Source: the human T2T-CHM13v2.0 reference genome, Homo sapiens
DNA: 64,000 bases
Reading direction: 5' to 3' (one strand)
Assembly: GCF_009914755.1 (NCBI RefSeq)
Contig: NC_060927.1
Shown here piece by piece: positions 1 through 63,298 of this stretch (position 1 is its first letter; each line of letters opens with the position of its first letter). The notes beneath the pieces are model-generated. The model saw nothing but the letters and a program-made list of their open reading frames with translations. It had not been told where the DNA came from and made no database searches. The translations under genes and the position numbers were made by a program.

Positions 1-1819
1 ACTAACTGAAGTTTTCGATTGTGAAATGGTAATAGAGGAAATAAACAGGATGCTGTCCAAGAGAATTATGGAGAGGATAGGGACCTACCTTAATTAAGAA
101 AGGCCACTCTGGAGAAGTGGCTTGTTCATGGAAACCTACAGAATGAAAGGCTTCAGCCTGGGGAGAGCTGGTATTGGCCCATGGTCCTTGCCCAAGAAAT
201 ACGGCCCTCTCTCCCAGAGCTCCCATTGCTGTGGGAATGAGCCAGTGTATAGACAGTGAGGCCAGGGCATGAGATCCTCATCTCCTGGTGGCAATTTTGT
301 TGCTCTATCATATGCTCAAATCTTAATGAACCATCCTGATAGTTTCTGCAAGGGAGCCATAAGCATGAGGAGTTGTTATTGTTGTGAGGGCTTTTCTTAA
401 TAAGAAATTCTTCATTTTGCCAGACTACAAGATGTTTAGCAACAATTTTTTTTGCGTCTAAGCTGTTGTGGAGTTATAAGAGTGCAAAAAAAAAGCAACT
501 GGTAAATATTTATTTGCTTTTGCACTTGTAAACATTAAAATTCATCTAAAGCTGAGATCTCGTATGTTAAGATACAACTTAGAATAAATTTTCATGTTTT
601 GAATTACTTTCCTCTTAAAGCTGCTATGAACTAATTTTTTGAAGTGGGGGTCTCCTGTGGGTATTGCTCACTTTAGCTGTGACTGGGGGAAAGGTGCAGA
701 GTAGCCTTTTGTGGAACTGAGTGAAGGAAATGTGGGGCCACTTGGGAAGCTGTTTCTGTAAGAACAGTGACATTCCCTCTAGGAATTACTTTGAAAAAGT
801 TGAATTTCTTGCATTTGAAGACGCTGAAGAAACATGTACGGAATGCCCACTGTATAAGAGGCACCAGGCTAGGCTTTGGCAGTAGAACATAGGTAACACA
901 GACTTCTCTTCTCTTGGGGTTTGCATTCTGGTAGGGGAGCTTGAGAATATGCCAGTAAACAAATACATACCCTTAAGTAGCCTTAATTGCTACAGTTGGG
1001 GAGCGGAGGGACAGTGTAGCTCTGAGTGGTCAAGGATGACCTCTGAGCAGAGAGCCAAGTGGTAAGAAGGAGCTAGCCATGCAAAGATCCAGGGAGGGGA
1101 ATTCTGGGCTGCAGGAACAGCAGGTCCAGAGACCCTACAGTGGGGAATTAATTTGGATCAGTTGAGGAGCTATCAGGCCAGTGTGGTTAGACCAGAGGGA
1201 GTGAGGGGGAGAGGAGGGGATGGATTTAGAGATTGATGGAGGTGCTCTGGAAAGGTACTCGTTGACCACGCTGAGGATTTCCTTCTACTAGAAATGAGAA
1301 ACCAGGGTAGATCTTGGCTGCAGTGTTACTTGATTGATTTTTTGAAAGACCTCTCAGGCCTCTGCGTGGAGATGATATAGGAAGGCAGGAATGGATGAAA
1401 GAAGCCCAGTTAGGAGGCAGTGGTAATGGTGGCTTGGACCAGTGTGTTTTCTATGAAGACAGGTGGTGGACTTGGAATTGACTTTCAAGCTTGAGTGTTC
1501 AGCCTCTGGACTATGGGCTCTGGCAAAGTAGCATTCTCAGCCTGCTCCTCTTAAACATTTGTTTGACCACATTCCTGAAAAATGTGGCTGCTGAGAGCTT
1601 AGGCTGGGAGTATTTACAGTTTGAGAGATGGGAGAGAGGCAGGGACTGGGACCGCCCCAGGTAAGTGGAAATGAGTTCTTGCCATTGGAGTCAGGTTCCA
1701 GATTCCAGAGACAGGGGAGAAGAAATGGATGGCAAACTTTGGGGGCTCCCTACTCCAGGTATGAGGTGTGTAGGTCCTCGGCTTCCACCCTACAGAAATC
1801 TGAGAGCATCTACAATCTT

Positions 1820-1960
1820 GGCAGAGTGGCTTTGGGAGTCAGATCAACCCAGTTGGCTCTGTCCCTTATTCACTCAGGGTCCTCAGGTAAGTCTTAGTCC
1901 CGTGTCCTCGTTTGCAAAGTGGAGCTAATGATCATGCTTAATGCCGAAGGTGGTGTGGCT
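1820..1960 (+). mobile_element. MIR fragment
   Basis: Degenerate MIR core: ggagtcaga...ggctctgtcccttatt...tttgcaaagtggagctaatg. Confidence 0.6.
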
Positions 1961-14328: not shown

Positions 14329-14461
14329 CGGAAAAAAACACCTCTGGAATGATAAGCCGCCCTGCTCCAGGGAGGATGGAGTGGATCATCCCTCTGATTG
14401 TGGTATCAGCCTTGACCTTCGTGTGCCTCATCCTTCTCATTGCTGTGCTCGTTTACTGGAG
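14329..14461 (+). CDS. PTPRG: PTPRG coding exon (about exon 13): stalk and transmembrane helix, (A)[43 protein letters not shown](R)
   Basis: Acceptor ...tttctcttggcag, donor AG|gtaagc; 133 nt, phase 1 to phase 2. The translation has a ~25-aa hydrophobic helix and matches the PTPRG sequence as I recall it. Confidence 0.97.
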
Positions 14462-26702: not shown

Positions 26703-26789
26703 AGGGTGTAACAAAATAAAGTCCAAGGGCTTTCCCAGACGTTTCCGTGAAGTGCCTTCTTCTGGGGAGAGAGGAGAGAAGGGGAGCAG
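26703..26789 (+). CDS. PTPRG: PTPRG 87-nt juxtamembrane cassette exon (about exon 14): (R)[28 protein letters not shown](R)
   Basis: Long polypyrimidine tract ending tttag, donor AG|gtgagg; 87 nt, phase 2-2, so skipping keeps the frame. Corresponds to the 29-aa segment absent from the known shorter RPTPgamma isoform. Confidence 0.95.
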
Positions 26790-36510: not shown

Positions 36511-38269
36511 AGTATACAGGGATAGACCTCAAAATATTAATAGTGATCATCACTAGGAGGAAGATTTTGGGTGTTTTTAATTGATTTTTTTCTTTTTGTT
36601 CATTTGTCTTGCCTAATTTTTCTGCAAAGATGATCTGTTGCTTATATAATACTTTATCAATTACTCCAGTGCTTAGCCAGGCTTAAGGAAGTAGTTTTAA
36701 GGATTGCAGACAGCGGCGGGAATGTGTTGTCTGCATACTTGATGCTGTGCAGTGGGTGCTGAATAAACATTTGCCAAATCCATTGAAATCTTTATTCTAC
36801 GGGAAGACATTCCCCACAAAGTTCTGTAGTTAGTTGCCCACCCATATATTTGTGTGGGAGGCAAGTGCATGATGTGCAGCAAGGTACAGATGCGGAGCTT
36901 TGTCCCCCAGGTTTCTGATCCTTATCCCCAGTCGTGTGCTTTTCGCTGGCAATCATGGAGTTATTTTGCTCCAGGGAAAATCCATTATAAACAGCAGCAC
37001 ATGGGGCACTAGAGTGTGATTTGCTTCAGTACACACTGCTTTTTTCAAAGATAATGTGGGGCCTGTAGTTCCACATATAACTGAGACTGGCTGAACTGTC
37101 TGCCTGTCTTGTAGGGAAAAAAAAATCTACAATATAGTATATATATATATCCTTTCCAAGTCACTTTAACAGTAACTTGGCCAATAACAATTGTATTTAC
37201 TAATAGCTTTACATTTTAGAAGTCTAATAGCCATAATAATTATGGTCTTAAAATCAAAGTTATTTCTTGCATGCATTTGTTTTTTTCAAGTTAAAGGCTA
37301 ACCCAGTAAATTGCATCCCATTCATCTTAGTGACTTAGAGCACTTATTTGGGCTATTAAGTAGTTGAATAGCTGTCCTCTAACTCAACAAAAGCAGGTTT
37401 TCCTTAGCTATGATACTGGATGGTTAAGGCTTTCATTCATTTGTGAAGTCCATAACCTGTGTTTTAACTTTAATGTTACATTCTGGAAATCTGTGCAAAT
37501 TGGAGAAGGTGGGGGAGGAGAGGAAGGAATCCAAGAGTAGAAAACTTAATAACTAATTTAGAGAGAGAAGGAAGTTATCTCAAACATCAAAATAATTTGT
37601 TTCACATAGATTTCCATTGCTTTACATTCAGAAGATTTGGTTAGCACCAGAGCCCTATAATATTATGTGCATTTCATATCCATGTAGCTTAAGTCTGACT
37701 AACTTATGTTCTTCACAAATTTAGGTAAAGGCAGCTACGCAAAGAGTGATGAAAACTTGTTTTATTATTTATATTATAAATGCTGAGCAATTCATAGGAA
37801 ACAAAAAAAACACGCTCATTTTTCTTCAGTGCTCTATTAGAGTAGTCCTGGGAGGCATGTGTCAAGAGTTGTAGTAACTGACGTTCAAAATCTCCTAATG
37901 GTATGGAGCAGCAGTCTAGATTGATTCTAGAGCACTATCCAAATGGAAACTGCTTAGAGCTACTTTCCATCTGAAAATAGGCACTGCTTAAAGAACAGCG
38001 CTTCATACTATGACATGTGATCATTTCTGATTGCGTGTGGTTATAATAGCCTGTATAAAACCTGAGATGGAAACATCTTTGTAACTCTGTGGTCTCTTCA
38101 CTCCCAAGGAGATCTTGTTTTTTATAGTTTCTTGATTTTTCTCTAACCTTCCCAACCCTAGCCCCTTCTTTGGCCTCATAGAAACAGGGTATGCCCAATG
38201 GAATCATCCCAGGATATTTTTGATTAGATTGAGCAAAGACAACTGTGAAGAAAAGTTGACTTATCTGGT

Positions 38270-38535
38270 AGTTGGAATACGGGCCCCAGAAAAAGCAAAG
38301 CTGTAATGTGTGTAAATGTTGTTTGGTGTGCGACGCCAGAGGAGGACAGATCCCAGTGACACTGTGCACCAGAAGGATGCCGCCTGCTTGGCTAAAAGAC
38401 CCAGCAGTAGGGCCAGCTATTGTAAAGCCCCTCCGCCAAATGAACAGGGACCCTTCTCTGGTCACAATAGCCATTCACGCTGAGCAGCTTCATTAAATAT
38501 TCAGCCTGTGCTTCCGGCAGCTCATTAGGGCCGCA
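38270..38535 (+). promoter_or_regulatory. Candidate intronic promoter or enhancer upstream of the putative alternative first exon
   Basis: No recognisable repeat. Locally GC- and CpG-richer than the AT-rich flanks (cgacgcc, ccgcc twice, cacgc, ccggc, ccgca). AT-rich ttaaatat at ~38493-38500. Confidence 0.35.
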
Positions 38536-38675
38536 ATGAGCAGTGACGTGGATGCAGGAAAGCTGAGGGCCAGCCAGCATCGGAGGCAGAGGCTGAGTGA
38601 GCTGCTGATGGCTTTTCTCTTCATTGCCTGTCCTATGATGACCAGTGTGTGCTCTCTGCTTTGCTTGAAATACAG
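38536..38675 (+). CDS. Candidate alternative first coding exon of PTPRG: MSSDVDAGKLRASQHRRQRLSELLMAFLFIACPMMTSVCSLLCLKY(R), splicing to exon 39285
   Basis: ATG in gccgcaATG context with an in-frame TAA upstream at 38494-38496. 46 open codons plus AG, then donor CAG|gtaaaa. Phase 2 matches the 39285 acceptor. No transcript evidence is available here. Confidence 0.45.
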
Positions 38676-39284
38676 GTAAAAAAAACAAACAAGCAGATGA
38701 CACGTAAGGGCTTCAAGACCTTGTCTCAGATGTTGTCTGGCAAGGGCCTCTGATTCTGAGTGCTTGCCTTCCTGAAGCCCTCTGACCCCTTTAAAGAGCT
38801 GTCTGAGGCTTAGGGGGCCTTTGCATGAACAATGTGGTGCTATTGTGTACTTGGGCTGTTTGATGACGATGTTGGAAGGGGATATAAGGTGTGGTTTTGA
38901 ACTTGGTGCTGGGGATTTAGAATAGCAAATTATTCCTCTGTAACGTACCAAATTTAGAAATATTGTGAGATAACCCTAGCACTCTGTGTGGTAGGTTTAC
39001 TCTCTACCATGTTTTCACGTATTTGAGTAGTTAAATACTAAGCCTTTCCCTTTGAACTATCAGTTTGGATGCGGTGATGATAAAAAAAATGGATATGCTG
39101 TAGCAATTTTGGGCCCCTCCAACAGGCTGAATGTTGTCCTTGTATCTTGTTACTTTTACATGAGTTTACCCTCAGTGCTGTGTGATGTTTAAAGCTGGGA
39201 AGATCTATAAAATAAGAATTAAAAGAAGATGAACTCAAATAAAGTATATTCTATTATTGACATGTTTTTCTCTTTTCTACACAG

Positions 39285-39376
39285 AAAATGTTTTCAGACT
39301 GCTCATTTCTATGTGGAAGACAGCAGTTCACCTCGAGTGGTCCCTAATGAAAGTATTCCTATTATTCCTATTCCGG
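39285..39376 (+). CDS. PTPRG: PTPRG coding exon (about exon 15): (R)[30 protein letters not shown](D)
   Basis: Acceptor ttttctcttttctacacag, donor G|gtaagt; 92 nt, phase 2 to phase 1; in frame with both upstream exons. Confidence 0.97.
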
Positions 39377-42300
39377 GTAAGTAAGACACTGCTCTTATTT
39401 CCAATGGGCTAATTGTTTTTCTCTTTTATTCTCAGTTTTATGTGATAAAACAACAAAATATTTTATAGCCTTTTAAAGCTTGCCCAGTATAAGAAATTCT
39501 CTTTAGAAGAACAAATAACTGAGTTAATGTAGTATACAGTCATAGGCAGGAAAGGGAAGTACAGTAGAAAAAAGGGAAAAACCGTACAAAAACATTCTTA
39601 GTATCTACTTGGACTAAATTTCATTTGCATAGGCAATTTGTGCTTATATTTTTAAATCACAATTTGTGACACATTTTTTTAAAGGTGATATTTTTCTAAG
39701 ATTCTTTCCTCTAAAATAATGTATCTTAATGTTCAAAGTTTTGGTTCTTACGATGGTTGTGTGGAAATAGAGGAATACATTACTGGTCTGGTGGATATTT
39801 CACTTTTCTTCTAGTAAGAAGATAAAGCACTTGGTTAGTGTTGGGGTAGGGAATAATGGAGTGCACACTGTAGTGAATCCTAGCAAATGCCATAGACATT
39901 TAGAAGTTCAGCAGTGGGTTAGGTGTAATAGGATGTGGGATTTGAAGATCTCACCCACCATTTTTATTTGGCATCCCTTCTTCTTTGCCAGATTTTAACT
40001 TTCTACGTCCTGGTTTCATTATGTGCTTCCAAATACGTATCTTCAGATATTTTAGATACATCTATCCTCTTGACATTACTCTTTTGCAAACAGAAGCATC
40101 ACTTTGATTATAATGCCACCCCTCCTCCACACCTGAAGCTCCCCCATCCTGCTGATCTGCCCTATTCTCCATAATGCTTTCCACCAGCTAATGTGCTATT
40201 TATTTTACTTTTTTCTTTGCTCTCTTCCCACTACAATGAGAGCTTTATAAGGGCAAGTGGCTATATCCTCAGTGCTAAAATAATTCTTGGCACATAGTAG
40301 GTATTCTTTAAGTACTTACATGAATGAACGTTAGAAAAATTTCCTTAAAGTTCTAAAAAGGTCTTGGCTGTGAAACTCAGAGGTAGAGTCATTCTTTGGG
40401 TACCATGGAGAAATGCTTCTATTGTTTGCAGATTGTCACTACGTGTGGTTATGGTTGTGGACTGAATTGCCCTGTTATGTGTCTGTATATTGCTAAGTCA
40501 TTAGATATTACTGGGATTGTCCATGTTTTGTACATTCTAGTCAGCTTTTCTCACTAAAACTTGCCACACAGAAACAAGAAGATTAACAGAAAGTCTCTGA
40601 TTAACTTCCTGTTGGAGCATTTTGTGGCTGCTAAACTAATTCTCATAAAGATAGGATAAGTTTTGTGTTACTGTGTGTTCTCCACTAACCCTGCCCCTTT
40701 TTCCTTGCTGAAGGAGACTACTTTTCCTTTGAGAGTAGAGAAGGTAGACAGGAATCATCAGTCTTCATCAGCATGAAATAAGTAGTTTCATTGAATCTAC
40801 TGGATTTGCACAATAGCGTGCATATACTTTTTCCTCTTGCTTTACCTACAATATGTGTTGACCACTGGAAAATTCCTGGCAGCCTTTCTCCCCTCTGACC
40901 TGATTTGTCTGACACAGACTCAGTTGTTTGGTAGCTGTGTAACTGAAATCCATTTTTGAAGAGTTAAATGGTGAAATACTTACTGGGCTGTTTTTCCATT
41001 TCTATTTTCTTTTACCACTGGATTAGGAATCAGAAAACCTAGGTCCACCCTGAAATCTTTGTTCAGTGCCTTCACCTCTCTGAACCTTAGTTTCCAGAAT
41101 CTGTAAATTAATTAGGATGCCTATTCTCCTTGCCTTTTGAGGTAACTGTCAAGACAACAGTAGATGATATTTGTAAAAGCACTTTGGAAACCATACATTA
41201 AGCGAAACGTGTAAGCTGTTGCAACTTTCCTTCCCAAATCATGGTACTGGTAATCCCAGCAGTCATGGAGAGAGAGCATTTGCATGACTCTCATGTTAAA
41301 ATTGTGTCCCTGACACCGAACTACATCCACTAGGTGTGCCCTACCTTGAATCACTCTTCTTTGATATAGGCTTTAGAACTTTCAATTCACTAGGATCCTC
41401 TGAATATGCCTTGCAACACCTTTGAGTAGGTATATTAGACCAGAAATTGCTTTTGAATGTTTTCTGTTTCATTCCCAGTTACCTATTTAATTAAGAAGTT
41501 AAATACTCAAAACCCAGGGGCATTTCTTTAAATGTGTCTTTTTCCCTTTTAAATATGTTTCTCCTAATTCATACTCACTACTAGTAATATAACTATATCA
41601 AAAGAAGACTGCTTCACATTCTCCACTGAATGAGAAGCCCATGTATTCAATTGTACCTCAGTTGGCAAGGTGAGGCATTCTTGACAAGCTGTAACACGTT
41701 TGTAAAGATGAATTATTTTAAATGTAAGGCAGTGTGATGTTAAAGGGCTTACCTAGTGAAATGACGAGTGAGGCTCATCTGTTCTCTCAGGTCTTCATAG
41801 CTAACATAGCCTTATTAGGAGTATGCCTAAACAAATGAACTTACTTCACCCTTAACTGAGAGTTACCCTAAATGACCTTTCCTTAAAGAGCTTTCAGCTT
41901 GATCACAATCTCTCAGCTTGGTAAATAAAACCCCACAGTCCTATTTAATAGTTACATTTGGAAAATATTTTAATTCACAAAGCACTTTTTAAACAATTCA
42001 CTGTTCTATTCTTTAGGATTTCTTCTTCTTTAGTTATAGCAGTACAACGGTGTCTCATAAAAGAAAAACACAATTCAATTTTTAACAAACTTGTGAGTTA
42101 TTTTCACTCTACTAAAGCTTTTACCACAACTTTTCTTTAATGGAGACCTCCATGGAATCATTTTAAATGATTTATCTTAGAAATTATCCAATTGTTTTTA
42201 TTTCTAAAAATAATACGAGATTTATAGAGCTCCTATGAAGTATTTATTCTACCCATTCAATCTCAGTTATATTTTATCCCTGCTCAAAACCTAAATAACA

Positions 42301-63163: not shown

Positions 63164-63298
63164 GGTTACAACAAAGCAAAAGCCTACATTGCCACCCAAG
63201 GACCTTTGAAGTCTACATTTGAAGATTTCTGGAGGATGATTTGGGAACAAAACACTGGAATCATTGTGATGATTACGAACCTTGTGGAAAAAGGAAGA
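63164..63298 (+). CDS. PTPRG: PTPRG coding exon (about exon 19): [45 protein letters not shown]
   Basis: Acceptor tcattttgaag, donor AGA|gtaaga; 135 nt, phase 0-0. PTP motifs YIATQGP, DFWxMxW and IVMxT. The catalytic Cys lies beyond the window. Confidence 0.98.

What the first reader, a model, noticed from the sequence alone, without database searches (positions are those of the whole stretch)
38536..38675. Candidate hidden first exon giving an ectodomain-less PTPRG with its own Cys-rich membrane anchor
Seen in sequence: a gccgcaATG start, an in-frame stop 40 nt upstream, 46 open codons and a CAG|gtaaaa donor 609 nt before exon 15. The donor is phase 2 and ends in AG, like the TM exon and the cassette exon, so it joins in frame as [57 protein letters not shown] 22-aa uncharged stretch (LLMAFLFIACPMMTSVCSLLCL) ends at KYR|K, mirroring VLVYWR|K of the true TM exon. 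It carries three Cys, plus one more from exon 15, and has basic residues on both sides. Established: other receptor PTPs make short isoforms from intronic promoters (cytosolic PTPRE, truncated PTPROt). Inference: a ligand-independent PTPRG isoform anchored by palmitoylation or a monotopic hydrophobic segment. Chance cannot be excluded: 46 open codons occur about 1 time in 9 in random sequence and a phase match 1 time in 3. It may also already exist as a predicted isoform in databases I cannot query.
Basis: partly seen in the sequence, partly recalled or inferred. Interest (0 to 1): 0.85.

Follow-up and report, generated by a model that had tools for sequence, protein, structure and literature searches.

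The report
Human counterpart of Ptprg exon 14a
The open frame is the human copy of an alternative first exon already known in mouse, which makes a PTPRG phosphatase lacking its outer and membrane-spanning parts; its last 13 codons are kept from fish to man, yet no human transcript model uses it.

Summary
In detail: ATG 38536, 46 open codons, CAG|GTAAAA at 38675/38676, in frame with exon 15. On statistics alone it looks like chance: 2 such ORF+donor candidates in the window against 2.1-3.0 in shuffles.

Comparison overturns that. A published mouse primer for Ptprg "exon 14a" (PMC11215419) matches 38545-38565 at 20 of 21 bases. The mouse numbers (primer at nt 4, ORF start nt 94, 13 codons) land on ATG 38635, 13 codons and the same donor. 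Predicted finch, turbot and salmonid isoforms carry M-T-S-x-C-S-L-L-C-x-K-Y-R directly before the exon-15 peptide.

So 38542-38675 is the human counterpart of exon 14a, the first exon of mouse RPTPgamma-V2 (NM_001347593), which lacks ectodomain and TM segment. That paper states V2 has no validated or hypothetical human orthologue.

Only the last 13 codons are conserved. Two invariant cysteines make palmitoyl anchoring plausible but untested. Human transcription could not be tested here.

The parts
38542..38675 (+). Human counterpart of mouse Ptprg exon 14a (134 nt): about 93 nt of 5' UTR plus 13 codons plus 2 bases of a split Arg codon. T2T chr3:62286542-62286675.
   Evidence: The mouse primer, described as 'nt 4-24 of exon 14a', matches 38545-38565. 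NM_001347593 ORF start at nt 94 and 13 aa from exon 14a map to ATG 38635 and the donor at 38675 with no net indel. The paper's 2,598-bp amplicon equals 2097+504-3, which fixes the primer at transcript nt 4.
38545..38565 (+). Match to the published mouse exon-14a forward primer, 20 of 21 bases
   Evidence: 1 match in the window at up to 3 mismatches; 0 of 100 shuffles gave any match.
38635..38675 (+). Conserved coding core: MMTSVCSLLCLKY plus the split codon AG|A (Arg). Met at 38638 and Cys at 38650-38652 and 38662-38664 are invariant across the species compared.
   Evidence: BLASTP E 4e-7, 1e-5, 7e-6. (tblastn to 38587/38638-38694). (invariant M...C.LLC.KYR, 8 of 13 positions in 6 sequences).
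38676..38681 (+). Splice donor GTAAAA (9-mer CAGGTAAAA, 7 of 9 consensus positions), phase 2
   Evidence: The 7 annotated donors in the window score 6-8 of 9. The site equals the mouse exon-14a end by collinearity.
39285..39376 (+). Exon 15 of PTPRG, the acceptor partner ([15 protein letters not shown]...)
   Evidence: Hub annotation.
38536..38538 (+). Purine at -3, but 6 nt upstream of the mouse transcript's 5' end equivalent; probably outside or at the very edge of the mRNA.
38608..38610 (+). In-frame ATG (M25). It would be the first in-frame AUG of a human mRNA starting where the mouse one does. The mouse ORF starts only at nt 94, so this AUG is either absent there or followed by an in-frame stop.
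   Evidence: ORF start.
38552..38566 (+). Out-of-frame 4-codon upstream ORF (MQES, then TGA). The same ATG and TGA are present in the mouse primer sequence.
   Evidence: primer text.
38611..38634 (+). With CAG at 38643-38645 it could act as a 3' splice site for a 30-nt in-frame cassette (38646-38675).
   Evidence: Its function is an inference.
38493..38501 (+). TATA-like TTAAATATT, which contains the 'in-frame stop' TAA. About 31 nt upstream of an initiator-like TCATT at 38522-38526. Unverified promoter lead.
   Evidence: Read; motif consensus recalled, not tested.

Best explanation
Window 38542-38675 is the human counterpart of 'exon 14a' of rodent Ptprg, an alternative first exon driven by a promoter inside the intron between exons 14 and 15. 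Transcription starts near 38542. The exon carries about 93 nt of leader. Translation starts at the conserved Met pair (38635/38638). Thirteen codons (MMTSVCSLLCLKY) and a split Arg codon are then spliced from the donor at 38675 to exon 15. The product would be an RPTPgamma of about 667 aa made of the juxtamembrane linker, D1 and D2, with no carbonic-anhydrase-like domain, no FNIII domain and no TM helix. This is the V2 type described in mouse. Shown: collinearity with the mouse transcript and conservation of the peptide and junction from teleosts to human. Inferred: that human cells transcribe it (my odds about 0.7, most likely in embryonic neural tissue or eye, as in mouse). Also inferred: that the two invariant Cys, set among hydrophobic residues and followed by K-Y-R-K/R-C, are S-palmitoylated and tether the phosphatase to membranes without a ligand-binding part (about 0.45).
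For: (1) The mouse primer gEx14a_Fwd ('nt 4-24 of exon 14a', PMC11215419 Table 1, passages read) matches 38545-38565 at 20 of 21 bases, the only match in the window; 0 of 100 shuffles matched. (2) Mouse NM_001347593 has its ORF at nt 94-2097, codes 667 aa, and takes 13 aa from exon 14a. Counting from 38542, nt 94 is ATG 38635, followed by exactly 13 codons and then AG|GT. (3) Finch P0025 (684 aa, cluster of 28 sequences) begins MQSLPGSLDVILLSTFSVMTSLCSLLCIKYR|KCFQ. Turbot P0123 begins ...RMNALCSLLCIKYR|RCFQ and huchen P0124 begins KMTSFCNLLCIKYR|RCFQ. BLASTP of the human ORF against these: 15 of 30 identical with no gaps, E 4e-7; 9 of 13, E 1e-5; 10 of 13, E 7e-6. Each match ends exactly at the exon-15 junction. 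(4) Eight of 13 core positions are invariant in 6 sequences, including the Met and both Cys (the three salmonids are not independent). (5) The finch 31-aa peptide searched against the whole human genome returns one candidate, window 38605-38676. (6) The exon DNA is single copy in the genome, so it is not a repeat. [quoted passage not shown]
Against: No human transcript evidence could be consulted. [quoted passage not shown] No protein of 84-2000 aa in the 5.8-billion-sequence database shares three 5-residue words with the human ORF. The same authors could not amplify V2 from mouse hippocampal cultures, pup hippocampus or adult hippocampus. The ORF, donor and phase statistics are at chance level. 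The donor lacks G at +5 and T at +6 (7 of 9), and 161 GT sites on the + strand score as well. There is no CpG island (observed/expected 0.34). The genome-wide E-value of the finch peptide is 4.0, so the match is significant only once the search is limited to the locus. The mouse exon sequence itself was not seen, only its primer and its numbers. For palmitoylation: no assay exists, the 12 titles and abstract openings listed for 'PTPRG' + 'palmitoylation' do not present palmitoylation of the PTPRG protein as a topic (listing only), and the mouse paper calls V2 cytoplasmic.
Confidence: 0.66

Rival explanations
1. Conserved relic: the sequence is the orthologue of exon 14a, but its promoter is silent in human. 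No human mRNA uses it, and its intact state reflects the short length of the coding part (41 nt) or another constraint, such as an enhancer.
For: No human model exists. V2 is rare even in mouse: one cDNA, one EST, and no detection in hippocampus. There is no CpG island.
Against: ATG, frame, both Cys, K-Y and the GT donor are all intact in human after about 430 My of vertebrate conservation (the age is recalled). The 5' leader is 20 of 21 identical to mouse.
Confidence: 0.15
2. One reading: human transcripts start upstream of 38536. Translation from that ATG (or from 38608) gives a 47-aa (or 23-aa) exon peptide whose 20-22 uncharged residues act as a signal-anchor or monotopic segment, so the human isoform is an integral membrane protein with almost no ectodomain.
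For: ATG 38536 has a purine at -3 and the frame is open. Hydrophobicity of 2.13 exceeds the classic 1.6 threshold and is matched by the finch model at 2.18. The TATA-like element at 38493 would place a start near 38524 (read, untested). The review PMC9900141 describes a PTPRR isoform from an alternative promoter that behaves as a type III membrane protein (passage read).
Against: The mouse transcript begins 6 nt after the ATG equivalent and its ORF starts at nt 94. The rat model has 2579 nt of leader and still codes 667 aa. Upstream of the core, human and finch share only 4 of 17 residues and turbot is not hydrophobic (0.87). Thirty-three further open codons have about a 0.2 probability by chance (own arithmetic). 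The hydrophobic residues coincide with a 20-of-24 pyrimidine tract. The Met at the start of the core is invariant in 6 of 6 sequences, as expected of an initiator.
Confidence: 0.12
3. Internal cassette micro-exon: the conserved 13 residues are inserted between the TM exon (or exon 14) and exon 15 of full-length RPTPgamma, adding juxtamembrane cysteines. In human this would be a 30-nt version, 38646-38675.
For: Whitefish P0121 and trout P0122 models read ...VLVYWR|MTSFCNLLCIKYR|RCFQ. Human has a pyrimidine tract plus CAG giving an in-frame 30-nt exon.
Against: The fish-type 39-nt acceptor position reads AT, not AG, in human. The salmonid entries are 'unnamed protein product' models of unknown evidence. 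The huchen model, also a salmonid, reads K rather than R before the Met, so it is not spliced from the TM exon. The mouse cDNA, backed by 5'-RACE, shows first-exon use.
Confidence: 0.05
4. Pure chance: an intronic ORF that happens to end at a GT in the right phase.
For:: such candidates arise at the observed rate in shuffled introns. A second candidate with a better donor lies at 1628-1886.
Against: The primer match, the collinearity with the mouse numbers and the fish-to-human peptide conservation at the junction cannot be produced by chance.
Confidence: 0.02

Closest known systems
Mouse Ptprg transcript variant 2 / RPTPgamma-V2 (NM_001347593, NP_001334522; cDNA AK144283); rat X6 and rabbit, guinea pig and Chinese hamster predictions (PMC11215419; PMC1431701)
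   Same: Same gene and same intron. The 5' part is 20 of 21 identical to the mouse primer. ATG at the same distance (nt 94), 13 codons, the same phase-2 donor joining exon 15, and the same predicted product (linker + D1 + D2, no ectodomain, no TM).
   Different: No human transcript or model is known. Human has two extra in-frame ATGs upstream (38536, 38608) that could lengthen the N-terminus. The mouse sequence beyond the primer was not seen here.
cyt-PTPepsilon (PTPRE) and PTPROt (PTPRO): short receptor-PTP isoforms from internal promoters
   Same: An alternative promoter inside the gene removes the ectodomain and yields a ligand-independent phosphatase. PMC1431701 Table 8 lists Ptpre and Ptpro as known cases and Ptprg as a novel 'catalytic' form.
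   Different: Different genes with unrelated first exons. PTPROt keeps a TM segment (listed as 'Tmcat'), whereas the exon-14a form does not. That cyt-PTPepsilon also has a short unique N-terminus is recalled, not checked.
N-terminal dual-cysteine palmitoylation motifs (GAP-43, PSD-95, SCG10/stathmin-2); recalled from general knowledge
   Same: Two Cys within the first 10 residues, set among hydrophobic residues and followed by basic residues.
   Different: There is no sequence homology, no acylation data exist for RPTPgamma-V2, and no prediction tool was available here.

Membership tests
Ptprg exon 14a / RPTPgamma-V2 orthologues | Lies in PTPRG on the coding strand, downstream of the TM exon and exon 14 and upstream of exon 15 | tested here: met
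   38542-38675 lies between exon 14 (26703-26789) and exon 15 (39285) on the + strand (hub table).
Ptprg exon 14a / RPTPgamma-V2 orthologues | Sequence identity with the mouse exon | tested here: met
   Only the 21 nt of the published primer could be compared: 20 of 21 identical and unique in the window. The rest of the mouse exon was not available.
Ptprg exon 14a / RPTPgamma-V2 orthologues | In-frame initiator Met at nt 94, 13 codons, then a donor joining exon 15 in frame | tested here: met
   38542+93 = ATG 38635; 13 codons; AG|GTAAAA; AG+A = Arg; then KCFQ.
Ptprg exon 14a / RPTPgamma-V2 orthologues | Exon peptide conserved in other vertebrates' short isoforms | tested here: met
   Finch, turbot and huchen first-exon models plus two salmonid cassette models; 8 of 13 positions invariant.
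Ptprg exon 14a / RPTPgamma-V2 orthologues | A capped transcript that starts in the exon and is spliced to exon 15 in this species | not testable with these tools
   No human RNA data could be reached. The literature says no human model exists.
S-palmitoylated N-terminal anchors | Cysteines near the N-terminus in a hydrophobic and basic context | tested here: met
   MMTSVCSLLCLKYRKC; both core Cys invariant in 6 of 6 sequences.
S-palmitoylated N-terminal anchors | Thioester-linked acyl chains and Cys-dependent membrane association | not testable with these tools
   Needs acyl-exchange or click-labelling experiments.
   Hydrophobicity is 2.13 in human, 2.18 in finch and 0.87 in turbot. The rodent ORF excludes the stretch. 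The stretch overlaps a pyrimidine tract.
PTPRZ1 paralogous exon | A similar exon in the equivalent PTPRZ1 intron | tested here: not met
   In the intron of about 9.3 kb between the PTPRZ1 TM exon (C7:123335049-123335123) and the exon-15 homologue (123344407), there is no + strand match better than E 0.75 and no motif hit.

The most novel reading that the evidence does not exclude
The 13-residue peptide M-T-S-x-C-S/N-L-L-C-L/I-K-Y-R is a lipid-anchor module kept since the common ancestor of teleosts and mammals. It turns RPTPgamma's catalytic half into a membrane-tethered phosphatase that answers to no ligand. Human makes this form too, although no annotation shows it. In human (and perhaps birds) upstream AUGs extend it into a hydrophobic signal-anchor, giving two grades of membrane attachment from one exon. 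The 6.2-kb PTPRG mRNA seen on old northern blots (cited in PMC11215419) would then be this transcript; mouse V2 is 6265 nt.
Probability: 0.3. Interest if true: 0.65.

Novelty: new member of a known kind. Interest (0 to 1): 0.5.

Why it matters
PTPRG is studied as a tumour suppressor, a CO2/HCO3- sensor and a contactin receptor. All three roles assume the ectodomain controls the phosphatase. A conserved isoform lacking that ectodomain would act on substrates without such control. It would be missed by antibodies and guide RNAs aimed at exons 1-13. It would survive upstream loss-of-function variants and the promoter methylation reported in tumours. The 2024 paper that describes mouse V2 says there is no human orthologue; the human genome in fact keeps the exon intact, which makes the question directly testable by one RT-PCR. 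The fish-to-human conservation of two cysteines in the 13-residue peptide does not appear in print in the searches made and gives a concrete hypothesis for how the isoform is localised.

Tried and rejected
1. Chance model. It fits the raw statistics but was rejected on conservation.

2. Search of the 5.8-billion-protein set with the human ORF, longer proteins only. No candidate was found. The finch relative shares only one 5-residue word, which explains the miss.

3. Exon 15 as a protein-search query was too short. I used the 45-aa exon at 63164-63298 instead.

4. Of the 12 short forms read:
- 1 (P0025) has the exon-14a peptide.
- 8 (P0018, P0020, P0023, P0024, P0026, P0027, P0028, P0030) keep the TM exon.
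- 2 (P0015, P0034) start further downstream.
- Turtle P0031 is a read-through of the intron end before exon 15, so I dropped it as evidence.

5. Of the 35 proteins listed, I read 18. Five of these carry the motif. The other 17 were not read.

6. Pfam on the ORF, on the 179-aa antisense ORF and on the 86-codon ORF at 1628: 0 families for each.

7. Rfam on 37500-39500: only two sub-threshold hits, rliB at 24.9 bits (gathering score 40) and SNORD34 at 21.4 bits (gathering score 38).

8. A PTPRZ1 counterpart: none found.

9. A retrocopy or repeat origin: the exon is single copy.

10. Literature searches:
- 'PTPRG' + '6.2 kb': 0 papers.
- The peptides as text: 0 papers.
- Accession numbers: only PMC11215419.
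- Promoter terms: nothing on PTPRG beyond PMC5470264, which lists mouse Ptprg among the genes with most TSS switching in cerebellum.

11. Supplements of PMC1431701 held no Ptprg text. Its 5'-RACE file, Additional data file 5, was therefore not seen and may give the mouse exon.

Its figures 1A and 2B, which print the mouse exon and peptide, are not held.

14. No structure or complex prediction was run, because nothing here depends on one.

Full report
**1. The observation**

- ATG at 38536 in context gccgcaATGa.
- An in-frame TAA at 38494.
- A 47-codon ORF: MSSDVDAGKLRASQHRRQRLSELLMAFLFIACPMMTSVCSLLCLKYR.
- CAG|GTAAAA with the exon end at 38675, followed by a 609-nt interval to exon 15 at 39285.
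- A phase-2 join that reads ...[12 protein letters not shown].

The ORF's own stop, TAA 38677-38679, overlaps the GT of the donor.

**2. Is it more than chance on its own? No.**

Every stop codon starts with T, so any ORF whose last sense codon ends in G carries a phase-2 GT. That holds for 18 of the 83 plus-strand ATG ORFs of 46 aa or more in this window.

I counted every ATG-initiated open frame of 40 codons or more that reaches a GT with at least 7 of 9 consensus positions, in the phase needed by the next annotated exon.
- Two candidates exist in the whole window. The other one, 1628-1886, has 86 codons and a perfect CAG|GTAAGT.
- In 200 dinucleotide-preserving shuffles of the same introns, the mean was 3.02 (>=40 codons) and 2.08 (>=46 codons).
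- For the intron before exon 15 alone, the mean was 0.28, and 24.5% of shuffles gave at least one candidate.
- The hydrophobic stretch (19-residue Kyte-Doolittle maximum 2.13) is reached by 8 of 216 ORFs of 40 aa or more on both strands; 34 of 216 exceed 1.6.
- There is no CpG island (observed/expected 0.34). The donor matches the consensus as well as 161 other GT sites on the strand do.

Had I stopped here, I would have called it a chance ORF.

**3. The literature changes the picture**

A search for PTPRG isoforms led to Forrest et al. 2006 (PMC1431701, passages read).
- It lists a mouse 'catalytic' Ptprg variant, cDNA AK144283, that lacks the ligand-binding ectodomain.
- Its alternative 5' exon was confirmed by oligo-cap 5'-RACE.

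A search for that accession led to Taki, Boron and Moss 2024 (PMC11215419; sections 42-44 and several passages read). They describe mouse Ptprg-V2 (NM_001347593, NP_001334522, 667 aa).
- It has only 13 amino acids from exon 14a.
- They call it a cytoplasmic variant.
- Rat X6 (667 aa) and rabbit, guinea pig and Chinese hamster predictions are named as orthologues.
- They could not amplify V2 from mouse hippocampal cultures, pup hippocampus or adult hippocampus. They suggest it is embryonic, because its support is an E11 spinal cord cDNA and an embryonic eye EST.

**4. Collinearity with the mouse exon**

Their forward primer, 'corresponding to nt 4-24 of exon 14a', matches window 38545-38565 at 20 of 21 bases. 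It is the only match in the window, and 0 of 100 shuffles gave any.

Their predicted amplicon of 2,598 bp equals ORF stop 2097 + 504 - 3. So the primer starts at nt 4 of the transcript, and exon nt 1 corresponds to window 38542.

The mouse ORF starts at nt 94. 38542 + 93 = 38635, which is an ATG. From there the human sequence reads exactly 13 codons, MMTSVCSLLCLKY. Then comes AG|GTAAAA, and AG plus the A of exon 15 makes Arg.

The mouse exon (93 + 39 + 2 = 134 nt) and window 38542-38675 (134 nt) therefore agree in length, start codon position, codon number and donor. I did not see the mouse exon sequence itself. This is an inference from four independent numbers that all fit.

**5. Conservation beyond mammals**

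The large protein database does hold vertebrate models (7988 of 8000 scored candidates at E<=0.001, best 120 listed). I read the 12 listed proteins of 614-739 aa.
- One, finch P0025 (UniRef A0A8U8C9E1, cluster of 28 sequences), starts MQSLPGSLDVILLSTFSVMTSLCSLLCIKYR and continues KCFQTAHFY.
- Eight keep the TM exon.
- Two start further downstream.
- The turtle model P0031 turned out to translate the intron end before exon 15.

A search with residues 1-45 of P0025 returned 35 proteins among 41 candidates. I read 18 of the 35, and five carry the motif:
- P0025 itself.
- Turbot P0123, as a first exon: ...RMNALCSLLCIKYR|RCFQ.
- Huchen P0124, 5'-incomplete: KMTSFCNLLCIKYR|RCFQ.
- Whitefish P0121 and trout P0122, where the motif sits as a 13-aa insert between the TM exon and exon 15.

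BLASTP of the human ORF gives the following:

| Target | Identity | E-value |
|---|---|---|
| Finch P0025 | 15 of 30, gap-free | 4e-7 |
| Turbot P0123 | 9 of 13 | 1e-5 |
| Whitefish P0121 | 10 of 13 | 7e-6 |

Each match ends at the residue before the exon-15 peptide.

Anchored at the junction, 8 of 13 positions are invariant in the six sequences: M...C.LLC.KYR (the three salmonids are not independent).

Searched against all 3.1 Gb of the human genome, the finch 31-aa peptide returns a single candidate, window 38605-38676. Its genome-wide E-value is 4.0, which is not significant by itself. Within the 64-kb window the E-value is 1.5e-5. The exon DNA is single copy.

**6. What is and is not conserved**

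The conserved unit is the last 13 codons, starting at the Met of 38638, which is preceded in human by a second Met at 38635.
- Upstream of the core, human and finch share 4 of 17 residues, and turbot is unrelated.
- The mouse ORF starts only at nt 94. So human ATG 38608 is either absent in mouse or followed there by an in-frame stop.
- The rat model has 2579 nt of 5' UTR and still codes 667 aa. I take this to mean that no longer open frame exists in rat.
- Thirty-three extra open codons have a chance probability of about 0.2 (own arithmetic).
- The residues AFLFIACP are the translation of a tract that is 20 of 24 pyrimidines. The turtle model shows that translated pyrimidine tracts look hydrophobic.

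Against this, the finch model's extension is as hydrophobic (2.18) as the human one (2.13). A longer, membrane-inserting N-terminus in amniotes therefore cannot be excluded.

**7. Mechanism**

*Shown:* an alternative first exon with a conserved short coding part, spliced in frame to exon 15, documented by cDNA and 5'-RACE in mouse.

*Inferred:*
- A promoter sits just upstream in human. There is a TATA-like TTAAATATT at 38493 and an initiator-like TCATT at 38522, but neither was tested.
- The product consists of the linker, D1 and D2, with no ligand-binding or dimerising ectodomain.
- The peptide has two invariant Cys among V/L residues, followed by K-Y-R-K/R-C. It resembles N-terminal dual-cysteine palmitoylation signals (a recalled resemblance). 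I put about 0.45 on palmitoyl tethering.

No paper in the searched library prints the peptide. The 12 titles and abstract openings listed for 'PTPRG' + 'palmitoylation' do not present palmitoylation of the PTPRG protein as a topic (listing only).

**8. Rivals**

- A silent relic in human (0.15).
- An internal cassette, as in the salmonid models (0.05). The fish-type acceptor position is AT in human, though a 30-nt in-frame version starting at 38646 is possible.
- Chance (0.02).

**9. Comparison and novelty**

The kind is known: mouse RPTPgamma-V2 and, more broadly, internal-promoter isoforms of receptor PTPs. PMC1431701 Table 8 lists Ptpre and Ptpro as known cases and Ptprg as novel.

New here:
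- The human genome keeps exon 14a intact, although the 2024 paper found no human orthologue among validated or hypothetical transcript models.
- The 13-residue peptide, with its two cysteines, is conserved from teleosts to human.
- The paralogue PTPRZ1 shows no such exon in the equivalent 9.3-kb intron.

**10. Limits**

- No human RNA data, no vertebrate genome alignment and no mouse exon sequence could be reached.
- The supplement of PMC1431701 with the 5'-RACE data held no Ptprg text.

Noticed in passing
window 1628-1886 (+): An 86-codon ATG ORF ends at a perfect donor, CAG|GTAAGT, in the phase needed by the TM exon at 14329. It has no Pfam match and no similarity to the short isoforms read.
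   Followed up: partly
window 37935-38474 (-): A 179-aa antisense ORF overlaps the presumed promoter region of exon 14a. It has no Pfam family. About one ORF of this length is expected per window by chance (own estimate).
   Followed up: partly
P0030 (Lontra canadensis isoform X2, cluster of 20); window 38102-38242 (-): A predicted carnivore isoform has its own first exon spliced to the TM exon, giving a form without ectodomain but with TM, as in PTPROt. No + strand counterpart was found in the window. The only hit is a minus-strand tblastn match with an internal stop (E 1.8e-4), probably chance or a shared repeat.
   Followed up: no
P0121 (Coregonus), P0122 (Oncorhynchus mykiss): These salmonid gene models place the 13-aa exon-14a peptide as an internal cassette between the TM exon and exon 15, whereas the huchen model P0124 uses it as a first exon.
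   Followed up: partly
window 38611-38645 (+): A 20-of-24 pyrimidine tract followed by CAG would allow a 30-nt in-frame cassette, 38646-38675, in full-length PTPRG.
   Followed up: partly
window 38552-38566 (+): A 4-codon out-of-frame upstream ORF (ATG...TGA) lies in the exon-14a leader. The same ATG and TGA occur in the mouse primer sequence.
   Followed up: no
PMC11215419 section 43 and Table 4: Human PTPRG shows 9.6-kb and 6.2-kb mRNAs on old northern blots (Tsukamoto 1992, as cited there). Mouse V2 is 6265 nt. The 6.2-kb band could be the exon-14a transcript or a polyadenylation variant.
   Followed up: partly
window 38626-38705 (+): Weak Rfam hit to SNORD34 (21.4 bits, gathering score 38, E 0.62) overlapping the exon end. 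Taken as chance.
   Followed up: no
P0031 (Chrysemys picta bellii); window 39256-39284: The turtle short-isoform model gets its hydrophobic N-terminus by translating the pyrimidine tract of the intron end before exon 15. This shows how such tracts mimic membrane segments.
   Followed up: yes
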